Source of the DNA: Coxiellaceae bacterium | Lineage (GTDB): Bacteria > Pseudomonadota > Gammaproteobacteria > Coxiellales > Coxiellaceae | Length of the DNA stretch: 64,000 nucleotides | Reading direction: 5' to 3' | NCBI GenBank assembly: GCA_035290065.1 | Contig: DATDVD010000032.1 | Location: 8,737 to 72,736 of the forward strand | In this document: piece after piece, positions 28,016 to 47,459 of the stretch | How positions within the stretch are numbered: position 1 is the stretch's first letter | Layout of the letters: every line of letters starts with the position of its first letter | Translations under genes and position numbers: made by a program | The notes under the pieces: generated by a model | The model's input: the letters and a program-made list of their open reading frames with translations, nothing else | What the model was told of the DNA's origin: nothing | Databases searched by the model: none

Positions 28016-28053
28016 AGGGTTAATTGCATTTTAATTTTTCCCCGTATTATATT

Positions 28054-31553: not shown

Positions 31554-31557
31554 TTTA

Positions 31558-32427: not shown

Positions 32428-32430
32428 TAC

Positions 32431-33444: not shown

Positions 33445-33490
33445 AGTAAATATTCTATTGTATACTTCTCAGAAAGGAAAAGCAATATAA

Positions 33491-34888: not shown

Positions 34889-36047
34889 CCCGCGCCTGTA
34901 TTTCTTCCATAATATTTTTGGCAATATTACTCCAATCAAAATGTTTTTCTGCGTATTGGCGAGCAATAATTTTCATATTCTCTAATTCCGCTTTTTTAGG
35001 GGCTAAATTTAATATAATGTCTGCTAATGCTTCACTATCCTCAGGAGGATGACAAATAAGCCATTGATGCTTAGCTAATTCACTCACACCAGGAATATCG
35101 GCTGCAATGGTAGGTAACCCCGTGGCTGCATAATCTCGAATTTTTAGAGGGGATAGGCCAATGCGTGTATTTCGTTTGATAATAAAAGGTGCGAGGGCTA
35201 TATCAAAAGCATTCAGTATATACTTAAGATCAGGATAAGTGATGTGTCCTAAAAAAATAACACAATCTTCGAGACCCCTATTTTTTGCGGCCATTTTAAG
35301 AGAGGTCAATTCAGGCCCATCTCCCGCAATAATCAGCTTAATTTTTTGATTCACTGTTCTTATTTTATCTAATGCTTTTAAAGCGAATATAACACCTTGC
35401 CAAGCATGCAAAGTTCCAATAAAACCACAGTAAAAATAATTTGGATCCAAATTTAGGTGTCTTAAAGCCTGATTACGTGGAAAAGGTCTGATTGCCTGTG
35501 TATCGGTTCCATTACCCACATAAAATATTTTTTGTTTCTTGACGCCTTTCTCCTCAAACAATGTTCCTAATTTTAATGTAACCACTCGAACAGAATGGGA
35601 AAACTTTGCACTAAGTATTTGTGCTTGTTCCCCTATCCAACTTAATATAGAGGGGCATTTTCTTAATAGTAATTCGTCTGATATCCAACCATTATGCTCT
35701 GAAACAATATGTACCTTTGTCAAACGAAGCAAGGCTATAAGAAAAAAACTAAAATTATAGTTTCTAATATAGACAATATCAAAATGATTTCTGCATACAT
35801 GAAAAAAAATCCATGGTATTTGTAAAATTCCAATGATAAAATTTGGCAACTTAAGAAAACCCACTTTTAATACCATATGGATTTTAAAACCTTGTGTAGC
35901 GATAGCAATGGCTTTCTTATAAGGCTTAAGTATTACTGCCTCAACATAATTACAGAGAGAAAACTGTTTTGCTACAGAAAAAAAATGTAATGTGCTGGCA
36001 TTGCATAAGCCAGCATCAATTACTCCAATCATTAATATTTTTTTCAT
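34857..36047 (-). CDS. glycosyltransferase, GT4 (group 1) family
   Basis: The GT-B C-terminal domain has IIAGDGPE...VIFLGHI and a segment resembling the EX7E motif (LSPLKIRDYAATGLPTIA). Confidence 0.72.
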   Translation of the reverse strand: MKKILMIGVIDAGLCNASTLHFFSVAKQFSLCNYVEAVILKPYKKAIAIATQGFKIHMVLKVGFLKLPNFIIGILQIPWIFFHVCRNHFDIVYIRNYNFSFFLIALLRLTKVHIVSEHNGWISDELLLRKCPSILSWIGEQAQILSAKFSHSVRVVTLKLGTLFEEKGVKKQKIFYVGNGTDTQAIRPFPRNQALRHLNLDPNYFYCGFIGTLHAWQGVIFALKALDKIRTVNQKIKLIIAGDGPELTSLKMAAKNRGLEDCVIFLGHITYPDLKYILNAFDIALAPFIIKRNTRIGLSPLKIRDYAATGLPTIAADIPGVSELAKHQWLICHPPEDSEALADIILNLAPKKAELENMKIIARQYAEKHFDWSNIAKNIMEEIQARVNWLEESVAE

Positions 36048-36058
36048 AAAGGTAATTA

Positions 36059-36808
36059 TTAAGTTACAGAATGTCCCTTGAATCCAATAAAAGCCTGTGA
36101 AGCACCCACATCATAAGCATAATTCACCAATATATTATTTAAGATATTTACCCTAGATTCTTCTCCACACCAAATAGCGTAAGATTGGCCTACTGGAATA
36201 GTATTATTTAATAATTGATTGTTTTCAACTAAACAATTTTTAGATCCTATACCAATCAAAATACCAACATATTCCAATTTTAAATCGGAATTTTCATTTG
36301 AAATAAAGAGATTTTTTATAATATTGTGTTTTATGATTACTTTATCAGCATTAATATTCATTCCTATAAGATAATTATCTTCGGCTTTTCTATTTTGAAA
36401 GGCCATGTTAGAAATTATGTTATTTTCAATATAAATATTTTCTCCCGCCGCACAGATTCCAATATAACGCGAGGCTTCAAAGTTGCAATTTTCCACATGA
36501 AGAATTTTACTTTTTATTGCGTGTAAACCGTAATAAAAACCTATCACTTTGGCATTGATAATTTTTACATTTTTAGATACTTTAATAAAAATTCCAAAAT
36601 TAACCGTTTCTTTTCCTCCCGTAAAATGAAGGCCATTTCCCTGGAAATCGAGCACCACATTATCGGATATAATCCTGATACCATAAGGTTTTTTTTTAAA
36701 TGATTTGTCGTCTAGATAAATATCTTTATCTAAATAATAATGCCCAGGTTTTGATATTTTTCGATTAGTAGAAATCAATAATTTCTTTTTGCCACAAACT
36801 TCAGTCAT
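36059..36808 (-). CDS. right-handed parallel beta-helix repeat protein
   Basis: Repeated about 22-aa I/V-x-N-rich turns (VKIINAKVIGF, LHVENCNFEAS, IYIENNIISN, VIIKHNIIKN, CLVENNQLLNN, VNILNNILVN). Confidence 0.6.
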   Translation of the reverse strand: MTEVCGKKKLLISTNRKISKPGHYYLDKDIYLDDKSFKKKPYGIRIISDNVVLDFQGNGLHFTGGKETVNFGIFIKVSKNVKIINAKVIGFYYGLHAIKSKILHVENCNFEASRYIGICAAGENIYIENNIISNMAFQNRKAEDNYLIGMNINADKVIIKHNIIKNLFISNENSDLKLEYVGILIGIGSKNCLVENNQLLNNTIPVGQSYAIWCGEESRVNILNNILVNYAYDVGASQAFIGFKGHSVT

Positions 36809-37470
36809 GCTATCACCCTTGCTGGTATTCCAAAAGCACGTTTTTTCTCTGGGATATTATGGATAACTACGGCACCTGCTCCAATAACTGCATGACAAGC
36901 TATTCTTTTATTGGGGACTACTGTGGAACTCATACCCATCATCACTAATTCTTCTACAATCACCCCACCTCCTAAAGTAACATTCGGAGAAATATTAACA
37001 AAATCTTTAATACAACAATCATGCTCAATTGTGGCATGAGTATTAATAATACAGTGATCTCCTATAACAGCTGATGCATTCACAACAGCACCCGGCATAA
37101 CCACAGTACCTTCCCCAATACGAGCTGTGCTGGCAACATAAGCACTAGGATGTATGGCTTGGATAAAGGAAAAGTAAGGAAACCTTCTTTTAATATCATT
37201 CACTAACCGATATCGTTGGTGGCAATCACCTATCGCTACCATTCCTTTTGCTTCTTTATATTTCGTGATTATTTTTTCTAATTCATAATCACTGCCCAAC
37301 ACTTCAATAGCATGAAATAACGAGCCTGTCTTTAATGCAATATCAACAATTCCAACCACGCGAAATAATGCAGCTTGGCTGTTTAAAATATCAATCACTA
37401 CCTTAGCCTGTCCACCTGAACCAAAAAGTAATACAGGAATGGCTGACGCAGATTGTATATCAAAGGGCAT
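36805..37470 (-). CDS. NeuD/PglD/LegH-family sugar N-/O-acetyltransferase (left-handed beta-helix)
   Basis: N-terminal Rossmann-like LLFGSGGQAKVVIDIL, followed by hexapeptide repeats (IGEGTVVMPGAVVNASAVIGDHCIINTHATIEHDC). Confidence 0.77.
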   Translation of the reverse strand: MPFDIQSASAIPVLLFGSGGQAKVVIDILNSQAALFRVVGIVDIALKTGSLFHAIEVLGSDYELEKIITKYKEAKGMVAIGDCHQRYRLVNDIKRRFPYFSFIQAIHPSAYVASTARIGEGTVVMPGAVVNASAVIGDHCIINTHATIEHDCCIKDFVNISPNVTLGGGVIVEELVMMGMSSTVVPNKRIACHAVIGAGAVVIHNIPEKKRAFGIPARVIA

Positions 37471-38089
37471 AATTTCCTTCCGTCATTAAAGCATTTAATA
37501 ATCTCAACCCTGATTTTCCGCTTTTTTCAGGGTGAAATTGAAGGCCATAAATATTTTGCTTTCTTACCATCGCTGTTATACGTAGACCATTATACCAACA
37601 ATATGCTACTTCATCTTGTTGATTTTCACATGCAAATGCATAGGAATGCATAAAATAATAACTGCTATCATTGACTCTTTCTGAGTGGCCTTGACTATCT
37701 TGATAGAGCATTTGCCAAGCCATATGGGGAATTTTTAGTGAAATAGAGTTAAAATGTCTCAAATGCTGTACACGTCCTGGAATTAAGCCAAGCCCTTTAT
37801 GGCTTCCAAATTCGTGTCCCTCATTTGCCAATAAATGCATGCCTAAACAAATGCCCATTAACATTTTCTGGTTATTCACGTGGCTTAAAATAGCTGGAAT
37901 AAAGCCGCGCTGCGCCAACGCATGCATACTATCTCCAAAAGCTCCTACACCCGGTAAAACAATACAGTGGGCATTTTCAAGTTGCTTAGGTTGATGACAC
38001 ACCGTTACGGTCACGCCTATGTGTTGAAGCGCCTGAGTTAAGCTAAAAAAATTACCCATTCCATAATCAATAATGTGTGCTGTTTTCAT
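37460..38089 (-). CDS. HisH-like glutamine amidotransferase (glycan-cluster paralog, WbuY-type)
   Basis: Class I GATase blocks (LPGVGAFG, GICLGMHLL, HSY and FHPEKSG). It sits in the glycan operon rather than in a his operon. Confidence 0.85.
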   Translation of the reverse strand: MKTAHIIDYGMGNFFSLTQALQHIGVTVTVCHQPKQLENAHCIVLPGVGAFGDSMHALAQRGFIPAILSHVNNQKMLMGICLGMHLLANEGHEFGSHKGLGLIPGRVQHLRHFNSISLKIPHMAWQMLYQDSQGHSERVNDSSYYFMHSYAFACENQQDEVAYCWYNGLRITAMVRKQNIYGLQFHPEKSGKSGLRLLNALMTEGNYAL

Positions 38090-38852
38090 ACGCCACTTCT
38101 CTGACTAAATAACCTTGTTGAATCAAATGGTGTTTAACATCCATCACGGATAAAACGTTATAATGGAATCGGTGAGCAATCGCAACCCCATCAGCATCCC
38201 CTTGTTGAATAACATCGGACGCATCGCTTAAGGAGCCCATACCTCCACTGGCAATCACAGGAATACTCACAACCTGGGTAACTGCTTTTACGAGCTCGAT
38301 ATCAAATCCCTGACAGAGTCCCTCTCGATCAACGGAGGTTAATAAAATTTCTCCCGCGCCTAAGGATTCCGCTTCTTTTGCCCATTCTACTACATCACGT
38401 CCCGTTTTATTACGTCCTCCGTCGGTATAGACCTCCCATTGCCTATCTCCTTTTTGTTTCGCTTCAATGGATAACACCGTGCTTTGCGAACCAAATCGCT
38501 TTGCAACCTCTGCAATAAAGGCGGGTGATTGTATTGCAGCGGTATTAATAGCCACTTTATCAGCGCCTGCACGCAATATACTGTCTACATCCTCTAAAGA
38601 TCGGATACCACCACCTACTGTTATGGGTACAAATATAGCTTTGGCTGTTTCAGCAATTAAAGAGTTTAAACTGTTTCGACCATACAAAGTAGCCACAACA
38701 TCCATATAAATAATTTCATCGATTCCCCTTTCATAATATCGCCTAGCAAATTCACGAGGGTCACCCACGACTCGAACACCTTCTAAATTCATAGGCTTAA
38801 TTAAGTTAGGCACTTTAATATCTAAGCGTGCAATCACGCGAATATTTTTCAT
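38067..38852 (-). CDS. HisF-like cyclase/synthase subunit (glycan-cluster paralog, WbuZ-type)
   Basis: (beta/alpha)8 HisF blocks ([35 protein letters not shown]). Confidence 0.85.
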
Positions 38853-38874: not shown

Positions 38875-39819
38875 TTAAACACCAAACATATTGTGAATCA
38901 ATTGCATTGTACGCATGCTCTCTTTTAGAGTAATCGCCCTGCTTTCTTGGCCCCGTATTTTATTAATCACTTCTCTGGCTTGATGATAAAATCCAGGCTT
39001 AAATTGTTTATCACATTCATCCATGGGGATATCTACGCGCTGCCTTTCTCCTTTTTTCTGGAGAGAAGCAATCTCCAGTGGCTGTAACATCCACCGTTTT
39101 GTAGGCGTATTGACACTGCAAGCCCACGGACCTGGCCCTTGCCAATGGCCCTCATATAAAGCATGGTCTCCACTATCAAACTCAATGTGCACAAGCATTA
39201 CATCCGTTTGCTCGCCTTTCCAAGGTTTAATAGGTTCTATTCGGCTGATTTGACCTCGAGCAAATGCCAGAATCAGATCAATCGTGTGAATAGAATTAGC
39301 ATACATAAATTTTTCAACCACACACGCAGGATGTCCATACTGATAAGCTTCAGAAAAATTTTGTTGATCCTGTATGTGAATATAACGCGATCCTGCTGAA
39401 GAATTTAAATCTTCCATTATCGATCTCACACTTGAATAAAAACGTCGATTAAGTCCTACATATACTTGGGCGTTGGATCGAAGGGCTGCTGCTGCAATAT
39501 CCATGGCATCTACATAATCATAACCTGCAGGTTTTTCCATTAGAACCAACCAGGGGTATTGAAAACATTGTTTGGCCACACAATTCGCTTCTACTTCAGG
39601 AACAGCGATAATAACAACATCAGCTCTCGTTCGATGATATAATTCTTCAATAGAATTGTACACATGTTCAACTTCAAATATTTTCTGCAACGCAAGGGAA
39701 CGTTCTTTGGTGCGGCTGTGAATACCCGCTATTTTAACACCCTCCAGTGCAGAAAAAGCTTTTAGATGCTCTTTTCCCATAGAGCCTGCGCCCACTAATG
39801 CTACTTTTACATTTTTCAT
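38875..39819 (-). CDS. Gfo/Idh/MocA-family NAD(P)-dependent oxidoreductase
   Basis: VKVALVGAGSMGKEHLKAF Rossmann N-terminus and an EKP motif (LMEKPAG). Confidence 0.75.
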   Translation of the reverse strand: MKNVKVALVGAGSMGKEHLKAFSALEGVKIAGIHSRTKERSLALQKIFEVEHVYNSIEELYHRTRADVVIIAVPEVEANCVAKQCFQYPWLVLMEKPAGYDYVDAMDIAAAALRSNAQVYVGLNRRFYSSVRSIMEDLNSSAGSRYIHIQDQQNFSEAYQYGHPACVVEKFMYANSIHTIDLILAFARGQISRIEPIKPWKGEQTDVMLVHIEFDSGDHALYEGHWQGPGPWACSVNTPTKRWMLQPLEIASLQKKGERQRVDIPMDECDKQFKPGFYHQAREVINKIRGQESRAITLKESMRTMQLIHNMFGV

Positions 39820-39830
39820 AGAATACCTTA

Positions 39831-41363
39831 TTAAACAGCTGTTCTTTTTACTTTCTTCAAGTTACACAGTTTTTGAACCAAATGATTAATGCGTTCTGAT
39901 GATTTTCCATCCAAATATCCCCACTTATTTTTTTCTTTATGGGCCAATGCCTGCAGCTCTCTCAATTTTACTTCATTTTTTATAGAATAAACAGCCAAAA
40001 TAAATTCCTCTTTTGTATTGGCGTGCAACACGCTTGGCACATTTTTATAGTCTGTGTATTGGTAATAAAAAACATCATAGTTAATAACAGGCAATCCGCA
40101 TGCAATAGCCCAGCGTATGGTGGCGGAAGCAAAAGCTAAATACACATCGGCTACACTTACCAGAAGATCTGTCGGCATTAATGTGGGAAGAATACCCTGC
40201 TTTTCAAAAAGTTTACTTAATTCCAGGTAATTCGGGTGAGGACGAAAAATAATATGGTATTGCTCTTTTAAACAAGAAAGTGTTTCCACAATAAAACTGA
40301 CAAAACCAAAAATATCTTGGAAATCAAATCGAGGAACTATAGCTGATAACTGGTTAGGAAATCCACCTATAAAAAAAAGAGGTTTGTCGGGAGGAAGATT
40401 TAATTGATAATAAATTTTTTCTCGTTCGCGGATTTTATTCAAAGAATAGCGGGCTAAATAATCATCATAGAGAGCCCCTACCACTTGCATTTTGGATTTA
40501 GGAATTCCTGCCTTTAAATAATATTCATACATCTTTTCACTTTCGACAGCAATGAGATTAGCATATCCACTATTCATCATCCAAGGATCAGGTGGAACGG
40601 TACGCGTGAGGAGGTGGCCATATACATACGGTGCCGGCAATCTTAACACAGAATGCCCTTCTTTTTTCATTATCCATTTACGAAAAATAAAACCAGTTAA
40701 TTTATTGGAAAATAATTGCAGGCTGTAATGAGGTTGGTTTTTTAAAGATTGGAACGCTTCTTCTTGATTGGCAATAGTATAAGGCAAGATTAAACTGGGA
40801 ATATTATAATGATGGCCAGCAGCTATCATTACTGGCGTAACCAATCCAACAATGTCTTCAGGGAGGATAATAATATTAATGTTTAAATGAGAGAGTAATT
40901 TCCTGTAATTTTTTCTATTTTTAAAAAATAATGCGATAATGAAAAATAAAGATTTTATTAATCTAACTCTTTTCTTAATTATATTCTTAATTCTATATTT
41001 AAATTTTTCTAAAGCAGAAATAAAAACGATCATTTTAAAGCGTTTCAAGAAAAAATATAATTTTGAATTTTTTATAAAAAAACGTTTATTTTTCTTTTTA
41101 TTTTTCTTTTTCTGGGTTTTAAAATAATTTTTTTCCGAAAATTCTTCTATAAATCCATCTATTTGGATAAAAATTTTTATTAGTGATTTTTCTATTAATA
41201 TCTTTTTTAATACTAGCGAAAAAACATTATCATTATAGGGACTGAAAACGCAAAGCATAAAACATTCATATCCTTCGGAAGTAAAAAATTCTACAGCCCT
41301 TTTGATTTCATAAAAATCAGAAGGCCTCTGCGTAACAAATAAGATTCTTTTTCGATTAAACAC
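39831..41363 (-). CDS. uncharacterised HP-motif GT-B-like protein with a Lys-rich/hydrophobic insert; candidate CMP-ulosonic-acid transferase
   Basis: 510 aa with a GTG start. It is a paralog of 33491-34888. The HP motif is IIFRPHPNY, followed about 35 aa later by DVYLAFASAT. The insert reads KKKNKKKNKRFF...SLFFIIALFF. Confidence 0.55.
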   Translation of the reverse strand: MFNRKRILFVTQRPSDFYEIKRAVEFFTSEGYECFMLCVFSPYNDNVFSLVLKKILIEKSLIKIFIQIDGFIEEFSEKNYFKTQKKKNKKKNKRFFIKNSKLYFFLKRFKMIVFISALEKFKYRIKNIIKKRVRLIKSLFFIIALFFKNRKNYRKLLSHLNINIIILPEDIVGLVTPVMIAAGHHYNIPSLILPYTIANQEEAFQSLKNQPHYSLQLFSNKLTGFIFRKWIMKKEGHSVLRLPAPYVYGHLLTRTVPPDPWMMNSGYANLIAVESEKMYEYYLKAGIPKSKMQVVGALYDDYLARYSLNKIREREKIYYQLNLPPDKPLFFIGGFPNQLSAIVPRFDFQDIFGFVSFIVETLSCLKEQYHIIFRPHPNYLELSKLFEKQGILPTLMPTDLLVSVADVYLAFASATIRWAIACGLPVINYDVFYYQYTDYKNVPSVLHANTKEEFILAVYSIKNEVKLRELQALAHKEKNKWGYLDGKSSERINHLVQKLCNLKKVKRTAV

Positions 41364-42777
41364 TATAAAATGATTCCGAGATTTCGCGCAAATTTTCTTG
41401 CAATGCCAAATAACGTTGTTCTTGGGCTAAGTACTTTAAATAGTCATATAGTGCAATAGGATCACAAAAATGGGGTATCCATTTTTTTAATTGTTCTAAA
41501 TGATATATCTCACAAAATCCACCATCCTCTTTTTCTCCAATACTAATTGCTGGTATTTGTAACGCTACGGCTTCTATCATCATAAGCGAGCTAAAACCTA
41601 TCACAATATGGGCATCTAATAAAGATAAATAGGAATTAGCTTTAAGAGGCAACACATAACAACTTCTAGGAAAATCAACTGATAATTTTTCATAACAAGA
41701 CGACATTCTCCATTCGGTCGGATGAATTTTAATTATTACTTTGAATAAATTTTCCTTCTTTTTTGCCTGATAGTCTAACAAGGCTTTTAAAAAGTAGATG
41801 CCTTTACTTCTTACATGATTTTGAGTCGGGAACAATAAAATGATAGGTTGATATAAACGAGAAGGACGATTTTTTAATCGTCTATAAAAATTTATTTCTG
41901 AATGTGCAATGACTTTTATTTCACTTTCATGCCAGAATCCATTCGAAAGAAGAATGTCCTTCCAGGCACTTCCATAAACTAGAATTTGATCTGAAACGGG
42001 CATGTAAGACTTTAGTTTTCTAGCTGTTGATTTCCATGAATAATCGACATCATCAGGTCCAAACATGCCATGTTGTATCTCCACTACTGGTATTTTTAAT
42101 AATTTTGCTGCGGCTACTTCTCCTGGCTTTGCATCAGGATCTTGAATGAATAATTTTATTGCCTGCGTACGTCTAAAAAGATATTTGTAAAAATTATATT
42201 TTAGAAAAAAAATGGATAAATTAATGGAGCATTTTTTAAATATAGGGCCCATCAAATCCTCTGGAAAATAATTTTTAATTTCTTGGCACAACTTAAAAGT
42301 TGTATCTCGAATAGGCTTATTTTTTGATATTAAAATCGAAAAAAGAAAAAAAACATTTCCTACATAAGACTCATATAAGGTATTCTTTTTCAATTTCTTA
42401 TTTTTTACATCCCCCCATTCATAGAGAATCTTCAAAGCCTCATTCTCATATTCGTTTAACAATACTTCGAAAATCCTATCAATTTTTTCCCTTCCGTTTC
42501 CATCTTTTGGCGAATAAACAAAAATATACTTGGATTTTGAACAAAAGAAAATAAAAAGGAGGTTAACACATCCTTTGAAGCATCCAATAAATTTATTTAA
42601 TAAATTACTTCTTTTTTTATATTCATTTCTGGTTTTATAAGTAAGAAGAAAAGACCATAATTCACCCTTTATTATCGGCCACGCTAGCCATGAGTCAAAA
42701 TAAGTATTCAAAATCTTTTCATTTCTATCTAAAGACAGAAATATGTCATTTAAACGTCTGTGTGTTAATTGCTCCAT
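41356..42777 (-). CDS. uncharacterised protein with a hydrophobic N-terminal half and an HP-motif GT-B-like C-terminal half
   Basis: I prefer the ATG at 42777 (MEQLTHRR...) over the listed TTG at 42786. The HP motif is IIKIHPTEW, followed by AHIVIGFSSLMMIEAVALQIPAI. N-terminal hydrophobic segments are LLFIFFC and VFFLFSILI. Confidence 0.5.
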   Translation of the reverse strand: MEQLTHRRLNDIFLSLDRNEKILNTYFDSWLAWPIIKGELWSFLLTYKTRNEYKKRSNLLNKFIGCFKGCVNLLFIFFCSKSKYIFVYSPKDGNGREKIDRIFEVLLNEYENEALKILYEWGDVKNKKLKKNTLYESYVGNVFFLFSILISKNKPIRDTTFKLCQEIKNYFPEDLMGPIFKKCSINLSIFFLKYNFYKYLFRRTQAIKLFIQDPDAKPGEVAAAKLLKIPVVEIQHGMFGPDDVDYSWKSTARKLKSYMPVSDQILVYGSAWKDILLSNGFWHESEIKVIAHSEINFYRRLKNRPSRLYQPIILLFPTQNHVRSKGIYFLKALLDYQAKKKENLFKVIIKIHPTEWRMSSCYEKLSVDFPRSCYVLPLKANSYLSLLDAHIVIGFSSLMMIEAVALQIPAISIGEKEDGGFCEIYHLEQLKKWIPHFCDPIALYDYLKYLAQEQRYLALQENLREISESFYSV

Positions 42778-42789
42778 AGAAATCAAGAA

Positions 42790-43914
42790 TTAAACCTTTT
42801 GAGTTATTTTTTCATGAATGAAATTAACTATTTTTTCGGATGCCTTAGTTGGGTCCATAAGTTGCTTACTAGCCTTCCACACTTGATCACGTCCTTCTGA
42901 TGACATGGCAAAATCCAATACAGTCTCTAACACCTCTTTTTTGTTTACATGTAACGCCAAACCTAATTTTACATAAGGTGTTGTATCAATATGGGCTACA
43001 TTCTCACAATAAATATGGATTTCTGAATTAAATAACAAATTAATTGGTACAACGAAAGGGGTTTTAGAAAAATAATTTATGTAACTTGCATCATAGCTAC
43101 AATTTGAAAAAGGACTACAGATAACATCACACATAGAAAAAGCATCTTCTGGTGTAATATCTTTCAAAAAAATAGGATTTATGTCTTGTTCCTCAAACCA
43201 TTTTTTTGTGCAATTAGCATCTGATATGGATTCTCTTGGATGAGGACGATAAGCAATATTTATTGCATTAGTGCTAATTTTTTTAAAAGTTTGAATTAAA
43301 CTTTTTACCGTGTCCTCATATCCTTTTAAATTGTGTAATGCCTGCCCAAAATACCCAATGACAGGTTTTTTTTCATCTAATTTCAGAGCAATTCTGTTAT
43401 TTTTTCTACGGTTGGCGAAATCAATCGTACTATATTTGAAATATTTTGGAGCACCTAGAGCAAATGATTTTACTTGGTATCTAGAAGCAATTAAATCAGC
43501 AGATAAGGAATCAATACAAAAATAATAATCTGCTTTAGAACCATAAGCAGAATTAATATCGCCCCAAGAATCTTGCATAACAGATGTTGGAATTTTTCCG
43601 TGAGCCGAATATATTATATACTCGTCTATTCCACTGTCTCTAGCAGTAGAGTAGCCGGATAAAATAAAATCTGGTATTACTGTATTGATAATTTCTAGAC
43701 AAAGATTTAACCATTCTTGATCTTTATTTTTACTATTTCTCGAAGGAACGGCATCAATCAAGTTAGATATCAATCCATTTTTTTGAAAAAAAGAGAAGGC
43801 GGGTTCTTGAGCATAGATACAAACCTCATCTTTTCCAATTAATTTAATATATTTAACAATCTCAATAATATGAAGCGCAGAACCTACATCTCGAGAAGTC
43901 ACTAGCAATTTCAT
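42790..43914 (-). CDS. uncharacterised HP-motif GT-B-like protein
   Basis: 374 aa with a Rossmann-like start MKLLVTSRDVGSALH. The HP motif is IAYRPHPRES, followed by CDVICSPFSNCSYDAS. Confidence 0.5.
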   Translation of the reverse strand: MKLLVTSRDVGSALHIIEIVKYIKLIGKDEVCIYAQEPAFSFFQKNGLISNLIDAVPSRNSKNKDQEWLNLCLEIINTVIPDFILSGYSTARDSGIDEYIIYSAHGKIPTSVMQDSWGDINSAYGSKADYYFCIDSLSADLIASRYQVKSFALGAPKYFKYSTIDFANRRKNNRIALKLDEKKPVIGYFGQALHNLKGYEDTVKSLIQTFKKISTNAINIAYRPHPRESISDANCTKKWFEEQDINPIFLKDITPEDAFSMCDVICSPFSNCSYDASYINYFSKTPFVVPINLLFNSEIHIYCENVAHIDTTPYVKLGLALHVNKKEVLETVLDFAMSSEGRDQVWKASKQLMDPTKASEKIVNFIHEKITQKV

Positions 43915-44915
43915 GATGATAATATTCGTTTTAATAAATAATTTTTATCTTTAGCTCTATTCAATAAATACAAAAATTTATTCCACTCTTTTGGTTCCGT
44001 TCCAATGTTATTCAAATAACAATATGTTAAAACACAAAATGCTTTCAGAGCTAATAAATCTAAGATGGAAGAATGCCATTTCAAATACTGATAATACCCA
44101 CCCGCTTCACGATAAATTTTCAAAAATTCTCTTCCTTTTTGCACAATGATTTCTTTATCAGTGCATAGAATCATTATAAAACGTTCAATAATATACCCTA
44201 ACTCTACTATCACAGGTAAATAACTATGGGCCGTATCTTCAAAGTCAAAAAAAACAAGGCTGTTTTCAACAAGAAGAACATTACCTGGGTTCAGATCCCC
44301 ATGTAATGATTGGGCTTGGGCAGTATCTATCCAGCAATCAAAATTATATTGCTTTGCTAAGGCGATAACAGCTGGCATATTTTCTCTAAAATGGCATTCA
44401 CCTTTTATTATTTTTTTTCGAATATATTCTAATTCTTTATAGCGTTGCTCTGTTTTTTCCTGCCATTTTTTCGTTTCAGGATGATTCTTCAAAGTGAGAT
44501 GCAACTGCGCTATTGATTTAGCCAATACGCTAAGATCATTGTTCGATGAAGAAACACGCACTCCTTCCCAGTAAGGATATACCATAACTAGATAATTTTC
44601 TCCTTCGTGCTGAAAAAGTTTTTTTACAATACATGCGCATGCATTGATATTATATTCTTGCAGCCACTGGGCAATAACATCATGTTCAAGATAGCTGTGG
44701 CTATTTTTTTCAGGTATCAGCTTAATATAATGCAGAACATGATTACTATTTTTTAATACCAAATGAGCATTATTCGGGAAACTAAATTCTACAGAATAGA
44801 GTTGCCCATTAGCATCTAATGCCTTCAACAATGCATTGGATTTTGGAGTATTGACAGCCCATAATTTAGGCAAGCCAGGATTTAACTCAATCCACGCAGG
44901 ATAATTTGCTAGCAT
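43911..44915 (-). CDS. aminoglycoside/choline-kinase-fold (APH family) phosphotransferase
   Basis: Catalytic loop LHGDLNPGNVLL and the downstream FFDFED (DFE/DFG-like) motif. Confidence 0.65.
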   Translation of the reverse strand: MLANYPAWIELNPGLPKLWAVNTPKSNALLKALDANGQLYSVEFSFPNNAHLVLKNSNHVLHYIKLIPEKNSHSYLEHDVIAQWLQEYNINACACIVKKLFQHEGENYLVMVYPYWEGVRVSSSNNDLSVLAKSIAQLHLTLKNHPETKKWQEKTEQRYKELEYIRKKIIKGECHFRENMPAVIALAKQYNFDCWIDTAQAQSLHGDLNPGNVLLVENSLVFFDFEDTAHSYLPVIVELGYIIERFIMILCTDKEIIVQKGREFLKIYREAGGYYQYLKWHSSILDLLALKAFCVLTYCYLNNIGTEPKEWNKFLYLLNRAKDKNYLLKRILSS

Positions 44916-45996
44916 GAGAGTGATAAAGGTGATCCCAAGTTAAAGGCTGATTAGCTTTTATCGGTTTATTGATACGACATCCTTCGATCATATCCCATTT
45001 TTCGACAGGAATACCTAAGCAGGGAAACGCAAAGCGTATGGTCTCATAATTAATTTTATCACCGGATTTTAAATCTTTTTTAGCTACCAAACACTGACGT
45101 TGGGAAGAGCCTATTACTCCTTTGATGGGTTGACTCATATCACGATGATAATTTCCCAATGCTTGCCACACATCGTATACTTTATGCAGCACGGACTCGA
45201 GTTGATCAATGCCCATCGCATGCACAATATCCTGGTCTAATTCATTAGGATCCGTATAAATGCCTTTTTCCAAGACAACTGCGCCTAGCGCAATGGCTGC
45301 ATATAACATTTCTACACCTTTATAATGATCAGACAAACCGACGGGAACACCAAAACACTGTTGGTAAGTTTCCAGAATCCGAAGATTGTGGGCCTCAGGT
45401 AAGGCGGGATGACCATCCGGGCTATGCTGCACGATAATTGCCTGACAGCCTGCTTTTCTAGCTGTATCCACCGCTGTAAACACTTCTGCCAAGGTAGCAC
45501 GTCCTGTATCAATCACCATCGGAAGGCCCAGTCTCGCCACGTGACGTATTAAAGGAATATGGACCACATTCGCTGAAGCAATTTTCAAGCTACTGGCTCC
45601 TTGTGCTTTAGCAAAATCAGCTGCTTCAAAATCATAGACAGATACAATAAAAGGAACTTTTGATTGCCTTAGGAGTTCAAATAATTGTGCATAATGCTCA
45701 AGGCTCATGCATTTCCGTTCTATTAATGCCCGATAATTTTCGACCTTGATATGGCCTTCCTTATCACAATAGGTTTCATTTAATGCGCTTGGAATACAAA
45801 TATCCGAGTTGCTGAGAATTTCGGTTTTTAGTACGGCAGGCTGATGCGATACTTGCGAGAAAATTGCAATAATACGCTGTACCAAATCCTTGGCTAACTT
45901 TAAATCCCCATTAAAATAACTACCTACTTCTGCAAAAACTAAAGGGGGATGAGCTTCTCCTACTAGAAATTGTCCGAATGTTATTTCATTTTTCAT
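44887..45996 (-). CDS. divergent NeuB-family (PEP-condensing ulosonic acid synthase-like) protein with a SAF domain
   Basis: The overall NeuB layout and GLSDH block are kept, but AEAGVNHNG is replaced by AEVGSYFNG, KFQ by KTE and EKHFT by EKGIYT. A C-terminal SAF-like domain is present. Confidence 0.65.
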   Translation of the reverse strand: MKNEITFGQFLVGEAHPPLVFAEVGSYFNGDLKLAKDLVQRIIAIFSQVSHQPAVLKTEILSNSDICIPSALNETYCDKEGHIKVENYRALIERKCMSLEHYAQLFELLRQSKVPFIVSVYDFEAADFAKAQGASSLKIASANVVHIPLIRHVARLGLPMVIDTGRATLAEVFTAVDTARKAGCQAIIVQHSPDGHPALPEAHNLRILETYQQCFGVPVGLSDHYKGVEMLYAAIALGAVVLEKGIYTDPNELDQDIVHAMGIDQLESVLHKVYDVWQALGNYHRDMSQPIKGVIGSSQRQCLVAKKDLKSGDKINYETIRFAFPCLGIPVEKWDMIEGCRINKPIKANQPLTWDHLYHSHASKLSCVD

Positions 45997-46006
45997 AGTA
46001 TTGACC

Positions 46007-46741
46007 TTAACCCAATTTGGTAACCTTAATAAAGTAATGATCGATTAATAATTTCAATCCATTGGTAAGTTGTCGCGAACGAGAAGCTGTGGTCATAGTC
46101 CACGTCCGGACAGGATCCTCTCGTCTAGGCAAATCCAGTGTGACTTCGAATTTTTCAAAGGCGAAGGCACATGAATAACTAGAAAGGATATCGTGCATTG
46201 TTTCTAAGCTATATATATTCCAACCTTTTTCCCATGACCCTACTCTTGCATTGATCCGTTTTCTATGAATAGTAATGAGGTCCACGCCGTATTCATTTAA
46301 GGGGGAAAAAATATATATCTTTCCACCCGGTTTGGCAGCAGACAGTATATTTTCCCAGAAGGTAACTAATTCTTTTTCATCAAAAATAGACATAACGCCT
46401 ACAGCCGTTATCAAATCAAATTTTTCTGTCATTTCCAATGGAAAATTTAAAACAGATTGATTTAAAAAAGTATGCTTTGGCAAAACATTTTTTGCCTTAT
46501 CCAGTAAGGCATCAAAAATATCTACTCCAGTGAAATGAAAATTAGAATAGTGATTAGATAAGAAATGAATTAACTCCCCCGTTGCACACCCAATATCTAA
46601 ACAATGGCTATTGTTCGGCAATTTATCTTGCTCAACCATATGCAAAAGTCGAAGAAAGGACTGCTTTGGTTGAGAAGACCACTCTTCTTGAATATAATGA
46701 TAATAATTTTTATAACGTGCTTCGTTTTTCTGATTGATCAT
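46007..46741 (-). CDS. class I SAM-dependent methyltransferase
   Basis: SAM motif I CLDIGCATGEL and the post-I/II acidic residues (FTGVDIF). Confidence 0.75.
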   Translation of the reverse strand: MINQKNEARYKNYYHYIQEEWSSQPKQSFLRLLHMVEQDKLPNNSHCLDIGCATGELIHFLSNHYSNFHFTGVDIFDALLDKAKNVLPKHTFLNQSVLNFPLEMTEKFDLITAVGVMSIFDEKELVTFWENILSAAKPGGKIYIFSPLNEYGVDLITIHRKRINARVGSWEKGWNIYSLETMHDILSSYSCAFAFEKFEVTLDLPRREDPVRTWTMTTASRSRQLTNGLKLLIDHYFIKVTKLG

Positions 46742-47459
46742 TGCAATGTTCTTTCATTATTAATTCAGCTAATTGAAAATTGATCTGATTATCAATATCA
46801 ATACTCTCTTCTTTTTTCATAAAATAAGCCATACAAGGCCGCTGATAAAAATTAAATGTTTTTAGAAATCCTTTTACTGTAACCGCATAAATAGCACCAT
46901 TTTGTTGATATACCTTGGGCAATTGCTGCATTTGAGCTTCCATAGCCACATCATCTACAAACGGTTCAATAGCATCTTGATTGATCATTACTGCTTTAGC
47001 AGGATGAGTCTCCACCTCGCAGACACTCATTCCACTAGCCCATTCACCTTGCAAAAAAGTGTGCAAACATGCCGTAAGATGATACTCTGTCCTTAAAGGG
47101 GAAGTAGGCTGTAACAAAACGATTGTGTTAAACTGTTGATTAAGCGCTGCATAATGTTGCAGAACGTGCAGAACTACATCGTTGTTTCGAATCTTATCTT
47201 TTGATAAATCTGAGGGGCGATCCACTACCTCAGCACCTTCCCTAAGTGCCACCTGTTTAATGAAGAGATCGTCTGTAGAAACCACCACTTTATCAATCAA
47301 TCGACAATTCAGCGCTGCCATTATTGTATAAGAAACCATGGGTTTTCCTGCTAGTAATAGTTTATTTTTTTGAGGGAGACGCCTAGAAAAACCTTTAGCA
47401 GGAATAATCGCTAAAATAGGCTGTCGATTTTTTTGCAGACAGGATTCACGTGAAGGCAT
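46710..47459 (-). CDS. acylneuraminate cytidylyltransferase-family (CMP-ulosonic acid synthetase) enzyme, copy 1
   Basis: ILAIIPAKGFSRRLPQKNKLLLAGKPMVSYTI, LLQPTSPLR and QQNGAIY blocks of the CTP_transf_3 family. Confidence 0.8.
   Translation of the reverse strand: MPSRESCLQKNRQPILAIIPAKGFSRRLPQKNKLLLAGKPMVSYTIMAALNCRLIDKVVVSTDDLFIKQVALREGAEVVDRPSDLSKDKIRNNDVVLHVLQHYAALNQQFNTIVLLQPTSPLRTEYHLTACLHTFLQGEWASGMSVCEVETHPAKAVMINQDAIEPFVDDVAMEAQMQQLPKVYQQNGAIYAVTVKGFLKTFNFYQRPCMAYFMKKEESIDIDNQINFQLAELIMKEHCNDQSEKRSTL

What the first reader, a model, noticed from the sequence alone, without database searches (positions are those of the whole stretch)
39831..43914. Three tandem uncharacterised HP-motif GT-B-like proteins: candidate novel CMP-nonulosonate transferases or polymerases
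**The shared pattern.** Three consecutive ORFs (510, about 473 and 374 aa), plus the inverted paralog at 33491, fit no glycosyltransferase family I can recognise. All four share a hydrophobic strand, then His-Pro, then about 30-40 aa later an acidic residue, a hydrophobic strand and a small Ser-rich turn, then a helix and (K/L/I)P(V/A)(V/I).
- In the 465-aa protein: TICPHP ... HDLYISSFSSS.
- In the 510-aa protein: IFRPHP ... ADVYLAFASAT.
- In the ~473-aa protein: IKIHP ... DAHIVIGFSSL.
- In the 374-aa protein: AYRPHP ... CDVICSPFSNC.
- The HP lies 122-150 residues from each C-terminus.

**Established knowledge.** An HP motif, and downstream Ser residues contacting the CMP phosphate, characterise bacterial sialyltransferases and polysialyltransferases (GT38/52/80). 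They also characterise related CMP-Kdo and TagF-like enzymes.

**Context.**
- The cluster makes at least one CMP-activated nonulosonate, yet it has only one conventional GT (GT4).
- The 510-aa and ~473-aa proteins have hydrophobic or basic membrane-association segments.
- This stretch is the most AT-rich part of the window.

**Hypothesis.** These are the linkage-forming or polymerising enzymes for a legionaminic-acid-type polymer. As far as I know, that enzymology is not established.
Basis: partly seen in the sequence, partly recalled or inferred. Interest (0 to 1): 0.78.

Follow-up and report, generated by a model that had tools for sequence, protein, structure and literature searches.

The report
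Uncharacterised HP-motif transferases in legionaminic-acid cluster
Three neighbouring genes and a fourth nearby encode distantly related, unstudied enzymes with a glycosyltransferase-type (GT-B) fold; they sit in a widely conserved gene cassette for a legionaminic-acid-type surface sugar and are the best candidates for the enzymes that attach that sugar, although this has not been proven.

Summary
All four ORFs exist as described. The motif (HP, then an acidic residue, a strand, a Ser turn, and a Pro) is the only part conserved across all four families.

- **Relatedness:** p510 and p465 are true paralogs. p476 and p374 are remote homologs (hhalign 96%, 92% and 80%).
- **Fold:** AlphaFold2 plus Foldseek give a GT-B fold for p510 and p374.
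- **Closest solved relatives by sequence:** a merged C-domain profile hits KpsC, TagF-like polymerases and a polysialyltransferase. All use cytidine-nucleotide donors. It hits no UDP-GlcNAc 2-epimerase, although epimerases are the best structural matches.
- **Context:** the genes lie in a cassette conserved from Legionella to Alphaproteobacteria, Acidobacteriota and Actinobacteriota. The cassette carries NeuB, a CMP-synthetase, WbuX, a methyltransferase, a kinase, a fused ABC exporter and an oxidoreductase.
- **Legionella link:** by gene order and size, the cassette matches the uncharacterised ORFs 8-13 of the L. pneumophila serogroup 1 O-antigen locus.

CMP-nonulosonate transferase is the best reading (about 0.55). 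A polymerase role is unproven, and Legionella genetics argue against an essential one. p374 could instead be the missing LegG-like sugar-nucleotide hydrolase.

These are new families within a known mechanistic class, and the interest is moderate to high.

The parts
39831..41363 (-). p510: GT-B HP-motif protein, from a widespread and strongly conserved family. It has a K/R-rich amphipathic helical insertion (aa 76-160) in the N-domain.
   Evidence: ORF. 263 homologs, the nearest named ones from L. pneumophila at 46-48% identity. Invariant E169, D170, P375-H376-P377, S413 and R417. AF2 pLDDT 86.5 with a GT-B fold. Always followed by the GFO oxidoreductase, in 27 of 27 loci.
41356..42786 (-). p476: GT-B HP-motif protein, a remote homolog of p510.
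   Evidence: ORF. 744 relatives in the exhaustive HMMER search. Invariant H355; near-invariant K353, P356, Q238, H239, Q322, S400 and E405. Its family profile hits KpsC at E 5e-4 across the HP...S..E region. hhalign against the p510 family gives 95.8%. Lies between p374 and p510 in 11 related loci.
42790..43914 (-). p374: compact GT-B HP-motif protein with no insertion. It is always the third gene of the NeuB2-kinase-p374 triad.
   Evidence: ORF. 17-sequence family with invariant R8, D9, D97, E98, Q114, D115, Q191, R223-x-H225-P226-R227-E228, S267, S270 and D275. AF2 pLDDT 70.3 with a GT-B fold. hhalign against the p476 family gives 91.7%. Triad present in about 18 loci.
33491..34888 (+). p465: paralog of p510. 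It carries an exact E-D-G motif (aa 115-117) and an HP at aa 324.
   Evidence: BLASTP 27% identity over 397 aa, E 1e-29. Shares all the invariant columns of A1. The u289-radical SAM-p465 module recurs in L008, L010, L012, L014 and L016.
40233..40238 (-). HP codons of p510 (H376-P377).
   Evidence: Translation check.
41719..41724 (-). HP codons of p476 (H355-P356).
   Evidence: Translation check.
43237..43242 (-). HP codons of p374 (H225-P226).
   Evidence: Translation check.
34460..34465 (+). HP codons of p465 (H324-P325).
   Evidence: Translation check.
38875..39819 (-). GFO/IDH/MocA oxidoreductase, the invariable downstream partner of p510.
   Evidence: Pfam PF01408. Adjacent to the p510 homolog in 27 of 27 loci, scoring 340-420 bits in the intact loci.
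43911..44915 (-). APH-family kinase, the middle gene of the NeuB2-kinase-p374 triad.
   Evidence: Pfam PF01636. Synteny.
44887..45996 (-). NeuB2: divergent NeuB plus SAF nonulosonate synthase.
   Evidence: Pfam PF03102 and PF08666. 165 bits against the 400-bit NeuB equivalog cut-off.
46007..47459 (-). Methyltransferase (46007-46741) and CMP-nonulosonate synthetase CMP1 (46710-47459).
   Evidence: Pfam. PseF-like hit in NCBIfam.
47446..50561 (-). Fused ABC exporter (47446-49251) and WbuX-type amidotransferase (49248-50561).
   Evidence: Pfam and NCBIfam. Conserved in the cassette.
50583..59766 (-). Upstream legionaminic-acid genes: SDR, GFO, SDR, CMP2, PtmE-like nucleotidyltransferase, LegC, LegB, GFO, acetyltransferase, GFO.
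   Evidence: Pfam and NCBIfam.
29320..33444 (-). Canonical NeuB/LegI (29320-30399), NeuC/LegG (30372-31553), unknown u289 (31558-32427) and radical SAM/SPASM (32431-33444).
   Evidence: Pfam and NCBIfam; NeuB and NeuC score above their equivalog cut-offs.
34857..38852 (-). GT4 glycosyltransferase, beta-helix protein, PglD/NeuD-type acetyltransferase, and HisH/HisF-like amidotransferase pair.
   Evidence: Pfam and NCBIfam.

Best explanation
**What they are.** p510, p476 and p374, with p465, are four members of one deeply diverged superfamily of GT-B enzymes. They belong to the 'HP-motif' class, which uses cytidine-nucleotide-activated donors. The class includes KpsC/WbbB Kdo transferases, bacterial sialyl- and polysialyltransferases, and TagF-like polymerases.

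**Where they sit.** They are the transferase component of a conserved cassette. The cassette:
- makes one or two CMP-activated legionaminic-acid-type nonulosonates carrying acetamidino and N-methyl groups (two NeuB, two CMP-synthetases, WbuX plus HisH/HisF, a methyltransferase);
- attaches them to a membrane-bound acceptor;
- exports the product through the fused ABC transporter encoded in the same operon.

**Inferred mechanism (not shown).**
- The C-domain binds the CMP-sugar. The invariant His of HP acts on the CMP phosphate as a general acid, and the Ser turn together with the following D, E or R residue holds the phosphate and ribose.
- An invariant acidic or His residue after N-domain strand 4 or 5 activates the acceptor hydroxyl: E169-D170 in p510, E-D-G in p465, D97-E98 and Q114-D115 in p374, Q238-H239 in p476.
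- The Asp nucleophile of the retaining Kdo transferases (QxxxD) is absent. An inverting, sialyltransferase-like reaction giving alpha-linked product is therefore the likelier chemistry.
- The basic amphipathic insertions of p510 and p476 would hold them at the membrane.

**Division of labour.** Each enzyme probably makes a different linkage or uses a different donor, for example priming versus extension. Which one, if any, is a processive polymerase is unknown.
For: - **Fold:** AF2 models of p510 (pLDDT 86.5) and p374 (70.3) match GT-B structures at Foldseek probability 1.00. The matches include TagF, polysialyltransferase 5wcn and MurG.
- **Common origin:** hhalign gives 95.8%, 91.7% and 79.8% with the HP in register.
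- **Signature:** HP is invariant, and the D, S and P positions are at least 90% conserved, across all the families.
- **Nearest solved relatives by sequence:** the merged C-domain profile hits KpsC at 2.8e-5, with the PGQ, HP and S..E elements aligned. It also hits the TagF-like Cps3D at 2.9e-5, TarL at 1.6e-3, and SiaD polysialyltransferase at 0.06. No Epimerase_2 entry appears at E up to 10. The p476 profile alone hits KpsC at 5e-4.
- **Weak Pfam hits among relatives:** Glyphos_transf, A-2_8-polyST and GT52. One p510 relative carries a precomputed PF04464 assignment.
- **Context:** the cluster encodes a full Leg pathway and two CMP-synthetases but only one conventional glycosyltransferase, and no other transferase candidates.
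- **Conserved cassette:** it is found in Legionella, Devosia, Bradyrhizobium, Thalassospira, Asaia, Burkholderiales, Vicinamibacteria and Acidimicrobiia. An independent p476 relative sits in the same kind of cassette.
- **Multiple paralogs per locus:** up to four per locus, which is typical of glycosyltransferases.
- **Precedent:** the Tannerella Pse/Leg transferases are TagB/GT-B-like proteins with an HP motif. The role of HP in CMP-sugar binding is described.
Against: - No biochemical data exist for any member of these families.
- The best structural matches for both models are UDP-GlcNAc 2-epimerases, which share the equivalent His.
- No family reaches a Pfam or NCBIfam threshold.
- The D/E-D/E-G motif is exact only in p465.
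- The related loci lack a canonical NeuC/LegG within 10 kb, so one member may fill that role instead.
- In L. pneumophila serogroup 1 the presumed equivalents are non-essential for the polylegionaminic O-antigen. This mapping rests on size and gene order only. The ORF11 mutant only loses one epitope, ORF12 is absent in some strains, and ORF13 is frameshifted in Philadelphia and Paris.
- The conserved pairing of each protein with a tailoring enzyme (oxidoreductase, kinase, radical SAM) is unexplained.
Confidence: 0.55

Rival explanations
1. At least one of the proteins, most plausibly p374, is not a transferase. It would instead be the sugar-nucleotide hydrolase or hydrolysing 2-epimerase (a LegG/NeuC/PseG analog) that releases the 2,4-diacetamido-2,4,6-trideoxyhexose used by the divergent synthase NeuB2. 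The adjacent APH-type kinase would act on the free sugar or on its product.
For: - The best Foldseek matches of p374 are UDP-GlcNAc 2-epimerases (TM 0.60-0.70, E 2e-10), against TM 0.52 for the polysialyltransferase. The same holds for p510.
- p374 has the size of an epimerase (374 aa) and no membrane-association insertion.
- It always directly follows NeuB2 and the kinase. That is the slot NeuC2/LegG occupies next to NeuB in Campylobacter (own knowledge).
- None of the 27 related loci has a homolog of the window's NeuC within 10 kb, and many have NeuB2 as their only synthase.
- Its N-domain is very strongly conserved across phyla, as expected for a fixed small-molecule substrate.
- A transposon mutant of Legionella ORF11, which has the same size and position as p374, changes an epitope but keeps the O-antigen.
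Against: - There is no profile similarity to Epimerase_2 or NeuC. Pfam gives 0 of 17 members, while 5 of 17 weakly hit TagF-like Glyphos_transf.
- hhalign of the earlier 4-sequence p374 profile (A3) against the window NeuC gives 0.1%.
- The N-domain profile finds nothing in the PDB.
- The merged C-domain profile finds KpsC, TagF-like enzymes and SiaD, but no epimerase.
- The early pathway genes, including a LegG, may simply lie outside the 10-kb flanks. The window itself has a canonical NeuC.
Confidence: 0.2
2. They are TagF-like phosphotransferases. They would transfer a phosphorylated unit from a CDP-activated donor and build a phosphodiester-linked, teichoic-acid-like polymer. The APH kinase and a cytidylyltransferase would make the CDP donor.
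For: - UniRef names a Legionella homolog 'CDP-glycerol:poly(glycerophosphate) glycerophosphotransferase', and one relative carries PF04464.
- The merged profile hits the TagF-like Cps3D at 2.9e-5 and TarL at 1.6e-3.
- 5 of 17 p374 relatives and 2 of 55 p476 relatives weakly hit Glyphos_transf.
- A kinase is conserved next to p374.
Against: - Both cytidylyltransferases belong to the CMP-ulosonate type (CTP_transf_3, PseF-like). They are not IspD-, TarI-, TagD- or LicC-type CDP-alcohol enzymes.
- The cassette has no glycerol-phosphate or ribitol-phosphate genes.
- All Glyphos_transf hits are sub-threshold.
- The cassette is otherwise a nonulosonate pathway.
Confidence: 0.1
3. The shared motif is a chance resemblance among unrelated Rossmann-fold proteins, and the ORFs have nothing functionally in common.
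For: The motif written as a loose regex occurs in 6 of 48 window ORFs and in 1-3% of shuffled sequences. Pairwise BLAST between p476 or p374 and the other proteins is not significant.
Against: Profile-profile comparisons are significant with the motif in register. H and P are the only invariant columns across the 28 sequences. The genes are co-conserved in one cassette.
Confidence: 0.02

Closest known systems
KpsC / WbbB retaining beta-Kdo glycosyltransferases (GT107 / GT99)
   Same: GT-B-derived fold with a CMP-ulosonic acid donor. They share the HP motif, a Gln just after the first strand of the C-domain, and the S-x4-E/D phosphate/ribose turn. They are the best PDB sequence hits: E 2.8e-5 for the merged profile and 5e-4 for the p476 family.
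   Different: The catalytic Asp nucleophile of the QxxxD motif is absent from all three families, which have QALHN/H, QNHVR and QLSAI or QSGSC instead. A retaining double-displacement mechanism is therefore unlikely. There is no similarity outside the C-domain.
Bacterial sialyl- and polysialyltransferases (GT38, GT52, GT80)
   Same: GT-B fold with a CMP-nonulosonate donor. They have the HP motif plus an acidic pair in the N-domain (D/E-D/E-G), and both were shown to be essential in NmB-polyST and PmST1. p465 has an exact E-D-G, p510 has invariant E-D-x-x-G, and p374 has invariant D-E. Polysialyltransferase 5wcn is a Foldseek hit for both models.
   Different: Sequence similarity is marginal: SiaD scores E 0.06, and only 4 of 55 and 1 of 17 relatives hit PF07388. 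There is no membership by Pfam or CAZy criteria. p510 and p476 carry a large helical insertion.
TagF/TagB-like transferases, including the Tannerella forsythia Pse/Leg transferases Tanf_01245 and TFUB4_00887
   Same: GT-B fold, a cytidine-nucleotide donor and an HP motif. The Tannerella enzymes are genetically proven pseudaminic- or legionaminic-acid transferases with a TagB-type domain. TagF is a Foldseek hit, and Cps3D and TarL are profile hits.
   Different: Similarity to PF04464 is sub-threshold. No direct comparison with the Tannerella sequences could be made, because they were not available in the tools.
UDP-GlcNAc 2-epimerase / NeuC / LegG (Pfam Epimerase_2)
   Same: These are the best overall structural matches: E 1e-11 to 1e-10, with TM up to 0.70. 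They have an equivalent His in the second strand of the C-domain. p476 has a weak C-domain hit (17.8 bits against a 30.6-bit cut-off).
   Different: There is no profile-level similarity for p374 or p510. No epimerase appears among the PDB hits of the merged profile. Epimerases do not occur as multi-paralog sets or with membrane-binding insertions.
L. pneumophila serogroup 1 LPS locus ORFs 8-13 (lpg0769-lpg0763)
   Same: Same order and sizes: methyltransferase (228-239 aa), NeuB family (361-368), hypothetical (333), hypothetical (372-375), hypothetical, then ORF13 with a radical-SAM neighbour beside wecA. The window has 244, 369, 334 and 374 aa, followed by the larger HP-motif proteins (p476, p510). 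Other Legionella species show the same cassette by sequence (L006, L007, L021, L026).
   Different: The serogroup 1 correspondence is inferred from size and order, and no serogroup 1 sequence was compared. The Legionella loci use Wzm/Wzt rather than a fused ABC exporter. ORF12 (598 aa) differs in size from p476.

Membership tests
GT-B fold glycosyltransferase superfamily | Two Rossmann-like domains with the catalytic cleft between them. | tested here: met
   AF2 models of p510 (pLDDT 86.5, pTM 0.85) and p374 (pLDDT 70.3) give Foldseek probability 1.00 against many GT-B structures. p476 and p465 are assigned by homology to p510.
Bacterial sialyl-/polysialyltransferases (GT38/52/80) | Conserved HP motif in the C-domain. 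| tested here: met
   H is invariant and P invariant or nearly so in all three families and in the merged alignment.
Bacterial sialyl-/polysialyltransferases (GT38/52/80) | D/E-D/E-G motif in the N-domain. | tested here: inconclusive
   p465 has an exact E-D-G. p510 has invariant E169-D170-x-x-G173. p374 has invariant D97-E98 with no Gly. p476 has only G-E. Structural equivalence to polyST E153 was not verified.
Bacterial sialyl-/polysialyltransferases (GT38/52/80) | Sequence membership (PF07388, PF07922 or a significant hit to solved members). | tested here: not met
   No Pfam hit for any window protein. Only weak hits among relatives. SiaD scores E 0.06.
Bacterial sialyl-/polysialyltransferases (GT38/52/80) | Transfer of a nonulosonate from a CMP donor. 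| not testable with these tools
   This needs enzyme assays.
Retaining beta-Kdo transferases (GT99/GT107: WbbB, KpsC) | Invariant QxxxD motif with an Asp nucleophile. | tested here: not met
   The Gln is conserved (Q338, Q322, Q191), but the +4 position is I/C/S, R or N/H rather than Asp.
Retaining beta-Kdo transferases (GT99/GT107: WbbB, KpsC) | HP motif and significant sequence similarity. | tested here: inconclusive
   The HP is aligned. KpsC scores E 2.8e-5 with the merged C-domain profile and 5e-4 with the p476 family profile. The match covers the C-domain only.
TagF-like CDP-polyol phosphotransferases (PF04464) | Match to PF04464 above threshold. | tested here: not met
   No hit for any window protein. 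Sub-threshold hits in 5 of 17 p374 relatives and 2 of 55 p476 relatives. One p510 relative has a precomputed PF04464 assignment. Cps3D and TarL are profile hits.
TagF-like CDP-polyol phosphotransferases (PF04464) | A CDP-glycerol or CDP-ribitol supply encoded alongside. | tested here: not met
   No TagD-, TarI- or IspD-type gene was found among the cluster ORFs scanned. Both cytidylyltransferases are CTP_transf_3, PseF-like.
Epimerase_2 (UDP-GlcNAc 2-epimerase / NeuC / LegG) | Match to PF02350 or TIGR03568 above threshold. | tested here: not met
   p476 scores 17.8 bits against a 30.6-bit cut-off and 21.8 against 235.9. p510, p374 and p465 give no hit. 0 of 17 p374 relatives match. hhalign of the 4-sequence p374 profile (A3) against the window NeuC gives 0.1%. 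No epimerase is among the PDB profile hits.
Epimerase_2 (UDP-GlcNAc 2-epimerase / NeuC / LegG) | Overall structural similarity. | tested here: met
   Epimerases are the top Foldseek hits for both models. This is a property of the fold class and does not prove membership.

The most novel reading that the evidence does not exclude
The cassette would be a self-contained, horizontally mobile machine that builds and exports a homopolymer or oligomer of an acetamidino/N-methyl legionaminic-acid-type sugar. It is found in at least three phyla. Under this reading, p374, p476, p510 and p465 are its dedicated priming, extending and terminating nonulosonate transferases, and they would found new CAZy families. 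This would identify the long-missing linkage-forming enzymes of the Legionella pneumophila polylegionaminic-acid O-antigen. It would also show that this polymer type is far more widespread than Legionella.
Probability: 0.3. Interest if true: 0.75.

Novelty: new variant of a known kind. Interest (0 to 1): 0.6.

Why it matters
Legionaminic and related nonulosonic acids coat important pathogens. The L. pneumophila serogroup 1 O-antigen is a legionaminic-acid homopolymer. Yet I found no paper that identifies the enzyme forming its linkages, and very few nonulosonate transferases are characterised at all.

This analysis defines three or four uncharacterised protein families with no Pfam model:
- They have the fold and the signature of CMP-sugar transferases.
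- They are locked into a nonulosonate cassette conserved across phyla.
- By gene order and size, that cassette matches the 'hypothetical' ORFs of the Legionella serogroup 1 locus.

That gives a short, testable candidate list for Leg/Pse transferases. Such enzymes are useful for glyco-engineering, vaccine antigen synthesis and serotype genetics.

The analysis also flags an unresolved gap: there is no LegG in the cassette. One of these proteins may fill that role in a new way.

Tried and rejected
- **Direct Pfam, NCBIfam and PDB sequence searches of the four proteins.** Nothing significant was found. Family profiles of p510 and p374 against PDB sequences also found nothing.
- **Word-index homology search.** It found only 3-4 relatives of p476 and p374, which would wrongly suggest orphans. 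The exhaustive search and the locus mining showed larger families.
- **p374 or p476 as NeuC-like enzymes, tested by hhalign against the window NeuC.** The results were 0.1% and 38.7%. Neither is evidence of membership.
- **Retaining Kdo-transferase mechanism.** Rejected, because the QxxxD Asp is missing.
- **Transmembrane helices.** Hydropathy scanning finds none. The top windows are Rossmann core strands.
- **Confirming the Legionella serogroup 1 ORF11-13 identity by sequence.** This could not be done. The cluster look-up returned only unnamed 'hypothetical protein [Legionella pneumophila]' entries. The single genome scan returned subsp. fraseri and other species, but no serogroup 1 genome.
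- **Regex statistics for the motif.** These were uninformative.

Full report
**1. The observation**

The four ORFs are present as described:
- p510: 39831-41363 (-).
- p476: 41356-42786 (-). It is 476 aa from a TTG start, or 473 aa from the ATG at codon 4.
- p374: 42790-43914 (-).
- p465: 33491-34888 (+).

A 100%-identical NCBI protein from a 'Coxiellaceae bacterium' MAG is annotated from Met26. Relatives align from about residue 7, so the longer form is right.

Each protein contains a single HP dipeptide, 134, 121, 149 and 141 residues from its C-terminus. The segment 39831-43914 has the lowest G+C of the window, 0.312 against 0.395. None of the four reaches any Pfam or NCBIfam threshold or matches a PDB sequence. 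The only signal is a sub-threshold Epimerase_2/NeuC hit on the C-terminal part of p476.

**2. Is the shared pattern real?**

Pairwise, only p510 and p465 are clear paralogs, at 27% identity over 397 aa and E 1e-29. Family alignments were needed to go further:
- **p510.** It has 263 word-index hits, and the nearest named ones come from Legionella species at 43-51% identity. In a 30-sequence alignment, E169, D170, P375-H376-P377, S413, R417 and N428-Y429-D430 are invariant.
- **p476.** It looked like an orphan in the word-index search, with 3 hits. The exhaustive HMMER search found 744 relatives. H355 is invariant, and K353, P356, Q238, H239, Q322, S400 and E405 are nearly so.
- **p374.** It had 4 word-index hits. 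Mining related loci raised this to 17 sequences with invariant R8, D9, D97, E98, Q114, D115, Q191, R223, H225-P226-R227-E228, S267, S270 and D275.

Profile-profile comparison links the families with the HP in register:

| Comparison | Probability | E-value |
|---|---|---|
| p510 family vs p476 family | 95.8% | 7e-9 |
| p374 family vs p476 family | 91.7% | 8e-7 (covers both domains) |
| p374 family vs p510 family | 79.8% | 1e-5 |

In a merged C-domain alignment of 28 sequences, H and P are the only invariant columns. The preceding acidic residue, the Ser of the turn and the Pro of (K/L/I)P are at least 90% conserved. The correction is that these are three deeply diverged families plus one paralog, not tandem duplicates. 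A regex version of the motif is not informative on its own.

**3. Fold**

- AlphaFold2 with the family alignment gives a confident p510 model: pLDDT 86.5, pTM 0.85. Residues 92-114 are disordered and residues 112-160 form a long helix.
- The p374 model is moderate: pLDDT 70.3.
- Foldseek against the PDB returns only GT-B-type structures at probability 1.00 for both.
- The top hits are UDP-GlcNAc 2-epimerases (E 1e-11 to 1e-10, TM up to 0.70).
- TagF, polysialyltransferase 5wcn, MurG, GT4 enzymes and plant UGTs follow at E about 1e-9.
- The structural ranking raises a rival. Epimerase/NeuC-type enzymes share this fold and have an equivalent His.

**4. Which branch of the fold class?**

Sequence profiles discriminate better than fold here. 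The merged C-domain profile was searched against all PDB sequences:

| PDB hit | E-value |
|---|---|
| KpsC (PGQ, HP and S-x4-E elements aligned) | 2.8e-5 |
| TagF-like capsule polymerase Cps3D | 2.9e-5 |
| TarL | 1.6e-3 |
| a second KpsC | 2.9e-3 |
| KrKA | 0.018 |
| polysialyltransferase SiaD | 0.06 |

- No Epimerase_2 entry appears at E up to 10.
- The p476 family profile alone hits KpsC at 5e-4.
- p476 relatives hit Pfam weakly: Epimerase_2 7 of 55, polyST 4, DUF6716 4, Glyphos_transf 2.
- p374 relatives also hit weakly: Glyphos_transf 5 of 17, polyST 1, GT52 1, Epimerase_2 0.
- The p374 profile shows no relation to the window's own NeuC (0.1% with the 4-sequence profile).
- The p374 N-domain profile finds nothing in the PDB.

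All the closest families by sequence use cytidine-nucleotide donors. In KpsC and WbbB the HP His protonates the CMP phosphate. In NmB-polyST and PmST1 it binds CMP-Neu5Ac.

The Asp nucleophile of the retaining Kdo transferases (QxxxD) is not conserved in any of the three families, although the Gln is. An inverting, sialyltransferase-like mechanism is therefore the more likely inference.

The D/E-D/E-G motif of sialyltransferases is exact in p465 (E-D-G) and approximate in p510 (E-D-x-x-G) and p374 (D-E). It is absent from p476.

**5. Context in the window**

The glycan cluster spans about 24.9-59.8 kb. The flanking genes are unrelated housekeeping genes. The cluster encodes:
- a complete legionaminic-acid pathway: LegB, LegC, a PtmE-like nucleotidyltransferase, PglD/NeuD-type acetyltransferases, NeuC/LegG and NeuB/LegI (the last two above their equivalog cut-offs);
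- two CMP-synthetases;
- a WbuX amidotransferase with HisH/HisF homologs, for acetamidino formation;
- a methyltransferase;
- a second, divergent NeuB with a SAF domain;
- an APH-family kinase, several SDR and GFO oxidoreductases, a radical SAM/SPASM enzyme and one fused ABC exporter;
- only one conventional glycosyltransferase, a GT4.

No WecA/PglC, Wzx/Wzy or Wzm/Wzt turned up among the ORFs scanned.

**6. Context elsewhere: a conserved cassette**

Loci encoding p510 relatives were fetched from several sources. These were public contigs, a scan of one genome per species that gave 22 loci, and two loci for p476 relatives. Window proteins were mapped onto the ORFs of the p510-anchored loci, L001-L027. 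The two p476-relative loci were read from their own gene tables.

The same gene order recurs: GFO, SDR, WbuX, fused ABC, CMP-synthetase, methyltransferase, (p465-like), NeuB2, APH kinase, p374, (p476), p510, GFO, then PglD and HisH/HisF. It occurs in:
- Legionella quateirensis, L. pneumophila subsp. fraseri, L. norrlandica, L. worsleiensis and another Legionella species;
- Devosia, Bradyrhizobium, Thalassospira, Hwanghaeella and Asaia;
- a Burkholderiales MAG, two Vicinamibacteria MAGs and an Acidimicrobiia MAG.

| Feature | Count among the 27 p510-anchored loci |
|---|---|
| p510 immediately followed by the GFO oxidoreductase | 27 |
| NeuB2-kinase-p374 triad | about 18 |
| p476 between p374 and p510 | 11 |
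| u289-radical SAM-p465 module | 5 |

- In L009 and L022 the ABC gene abuts p510 directly. The CMP1-to-p476 block therefore behaves as an insertable sub-cassette.
- A 28%-identical p476 relative lies in an independent NeuB/PtmE/CMP-synthetase/WbuX-like/ABC cluster.
- Up to four p510-superfamily paralogs occur per locus, a pattern typical of glycosyltransferases.
The families track nonulosonate genes very tightly.

**7. The caveats**

*No LegG in the related loci.* No homolog of the window's NeuC/LegG is found within 10 kb in any of the 27 loci. In many of them NeuB2 is the only synthase. A nonulosonate pathway needs a sugar-nucleotide hydrolase. So either that step is encoded elsewhere, or one of these GT-B proteins performs it. 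p374 is the obvious suspect: it is compact, has no insertion, is fixed next to NeuB2 and the kinase, and gives the best TM-scores to epimerases.

*Legionella genetics.* Published tables for the L. pneumophila serogroup 1 LPS locus list ORF8 (methyltransferase, 228-239 aa), ORF9 (neuB family, 361-368 aa), ORF10 (333 aa), ORF11 (372-375 aa), ORF12 (598 aa) and ORF13 variants. One ORF13 variant is a radical-SAM protein, and ORF13 lies next to wecA. ORF10, ORF11, ORF12 and the other ORF13 variants are listed as 'hypothetical conserved'.

The sizes and order match the window's methyltransferase (244), NeuB2 (369), kinase (334) and p374 (374). In non-serogroup-1 L. pneumophila the p510 homolog also sits beside wecA. 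This correspondence is inferred, not sequence-verified.

If it holds, the genetics argue against an essential polymerase role:
- transposon insertion in ORF11 or ORF8 changes a monoclonal-antibody epitope but the strain keeps its O-antigen;
- ORF12 is absent from several serogroup 1 strains;
- ORF13 is frameshifted in Philadelphia 1 and Paris.

Redundancy among paralogs (ORF6, ORF7) could reconcile these findings. I found no paper that characterises any of these genes or identifies the legionaminic-acid polymerase.

**8. Conclusion**

| Reading | Confidence |
|---|---|
| Diverged superfamily of HP-motif GT-B enzymes using CMP-activated nonulosonates; the transferase component of a conserved legionaminic-acid-type assembly and export cassette | about 0.55 |
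| p374 (or another member) is a LegG-like hydrolase | about 0.2 |
| TagF-like phosphotransfer | about 0.1 |
| Chance resemblance | excluded |

- **Shown:** the ORFs, the motif conservation, remote homology, the GT-B fold, the nearest sequence relatives and the conserved synteny.
- **Inferred:** the donor identity, the inverting mechanism, the catalytic roles of the His, Ser and acidic residues, membrane association, and any polymerase activity.
- **Closest functional precedent:** the TagB-like, HP-motif Pse/Leg transferases of Tannerella forsythia.

The finding is a new variant of a known kind: new families, with no Pfam model, within the CMP-sugar GT-B class. It gives a concrete candidate list for an open question in Legionella O-antigen biosynthesis.

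Noticed in passing
window 38875-50561 (-); loci L003-L028: A cassette with fixed gene order (WbuX, fused ABC, CMP-synthetase, methyltransferase, NeuB+SAF, APH kinase, p374, p476, p510, GFO oxidoreductase) is conserved across Legionellales, Alphaproteobacteria, Burkholderiales, Acidobacteriota and Actinobacteriota. The CMP1-to-p476 block behaves as an insertable sub-cassette: it is missing in L009 and L022, where the ABC gene abuts p510.
   Followed up: yes
window 38875-39819 (-) and 39831-41363 (-): The p510 homolog is immediately followed by a highly conserved GFO/IDH/MocA oxidoreductase in all 27 loci examined. This holds even where the rest of the cassette is absent, as in L. pneumophila L001. 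The functional reason for pairing a transferase-like protein with an oxidoreductase is unexplained.
   Followed up: partly
window 43911-44915 (-): An APH-family (aminoglycoside/choline/sugar-kinase-like) kinase always sits between the divergent NeuB2 and p374. No known bacterial legionaminic- or pseudaminic-acid pathway needs a kinase. It could be an anomeric sugar kinase (NahK/AmgK-like), a kinase analogous to the ManNAc kinase of GNE, or a glycan kinase.
   Followed up: partly
window 31558-34888: The module u289 (no Pfam match), radical SAM/SPASM and p465 recurs in L008, L010, L012, L014 and L016. It mirrors the ORF13-c (radical SAM) plus ORF13-A pair described beside wecA in some L. pneumophila serogroup 1 strains.
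   Followed up: partly
window 44887-45996 (-) versus 29320-30399 (-): There are two NeuB synthases and two CMP-synthetases (46710-47459 and 53077-53790) but only one NeuC. NeuB2 scores far below the NeuB and PseI equivalog cut-offs (165 bits against 400), which suggests a second, different nonulosonate, possibly an epimer.
   Followed up: partly
window 47446-49251 (-): The only exporter in the cluster is a fused TMD-NBD ABC protein (MsbA/PglK-like). Among the ORFs scanned there is no Wzm/Wzt, Wzx/Wzy or initiating phosphoglycosyltransferase, so the acceptor and the export route are unclear.
   Followed up: partly
window 41356-42786 (-): The 100%-identical NCBI MAG protein is annotated from Met26 (451 aa). 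Homologs align from about residue 7, so the database start is probably too far downstream.
   Followed up: yes
window 36059-36808 (-): A right-handed beta-helix protein (249 aa) lies between the PglD-like acetyltransferase and the GT4. Weak homologs follow PglD in L015 and L017-L019. Its function is unknown.
   Followed up: no
window 14086-14844 (-): An AbiEi-type antitoxin/transcriptional regulator (type IV toxin-antitoxin system) lies upstream of the glycan cluster.
   Followed up: no
loci L011, L013, L023 (about 14.1-18.6 kb in each): The alphaproteobacterial versions of the cassette add an asparagine-synthase-like amidotransferase (about 660 aa), a second weak WbuX-like gene and an NHL-repeat protein after the GFO gene. 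This points to further amide-type tailoring of the sugar.
   Followed up: no
window 26978-28674: Two ORFs (345 aa on the - strand and 216 aa on the + strand) at the edge of the cluster have no Pfam or NCBIfam match.
   Followed up: no
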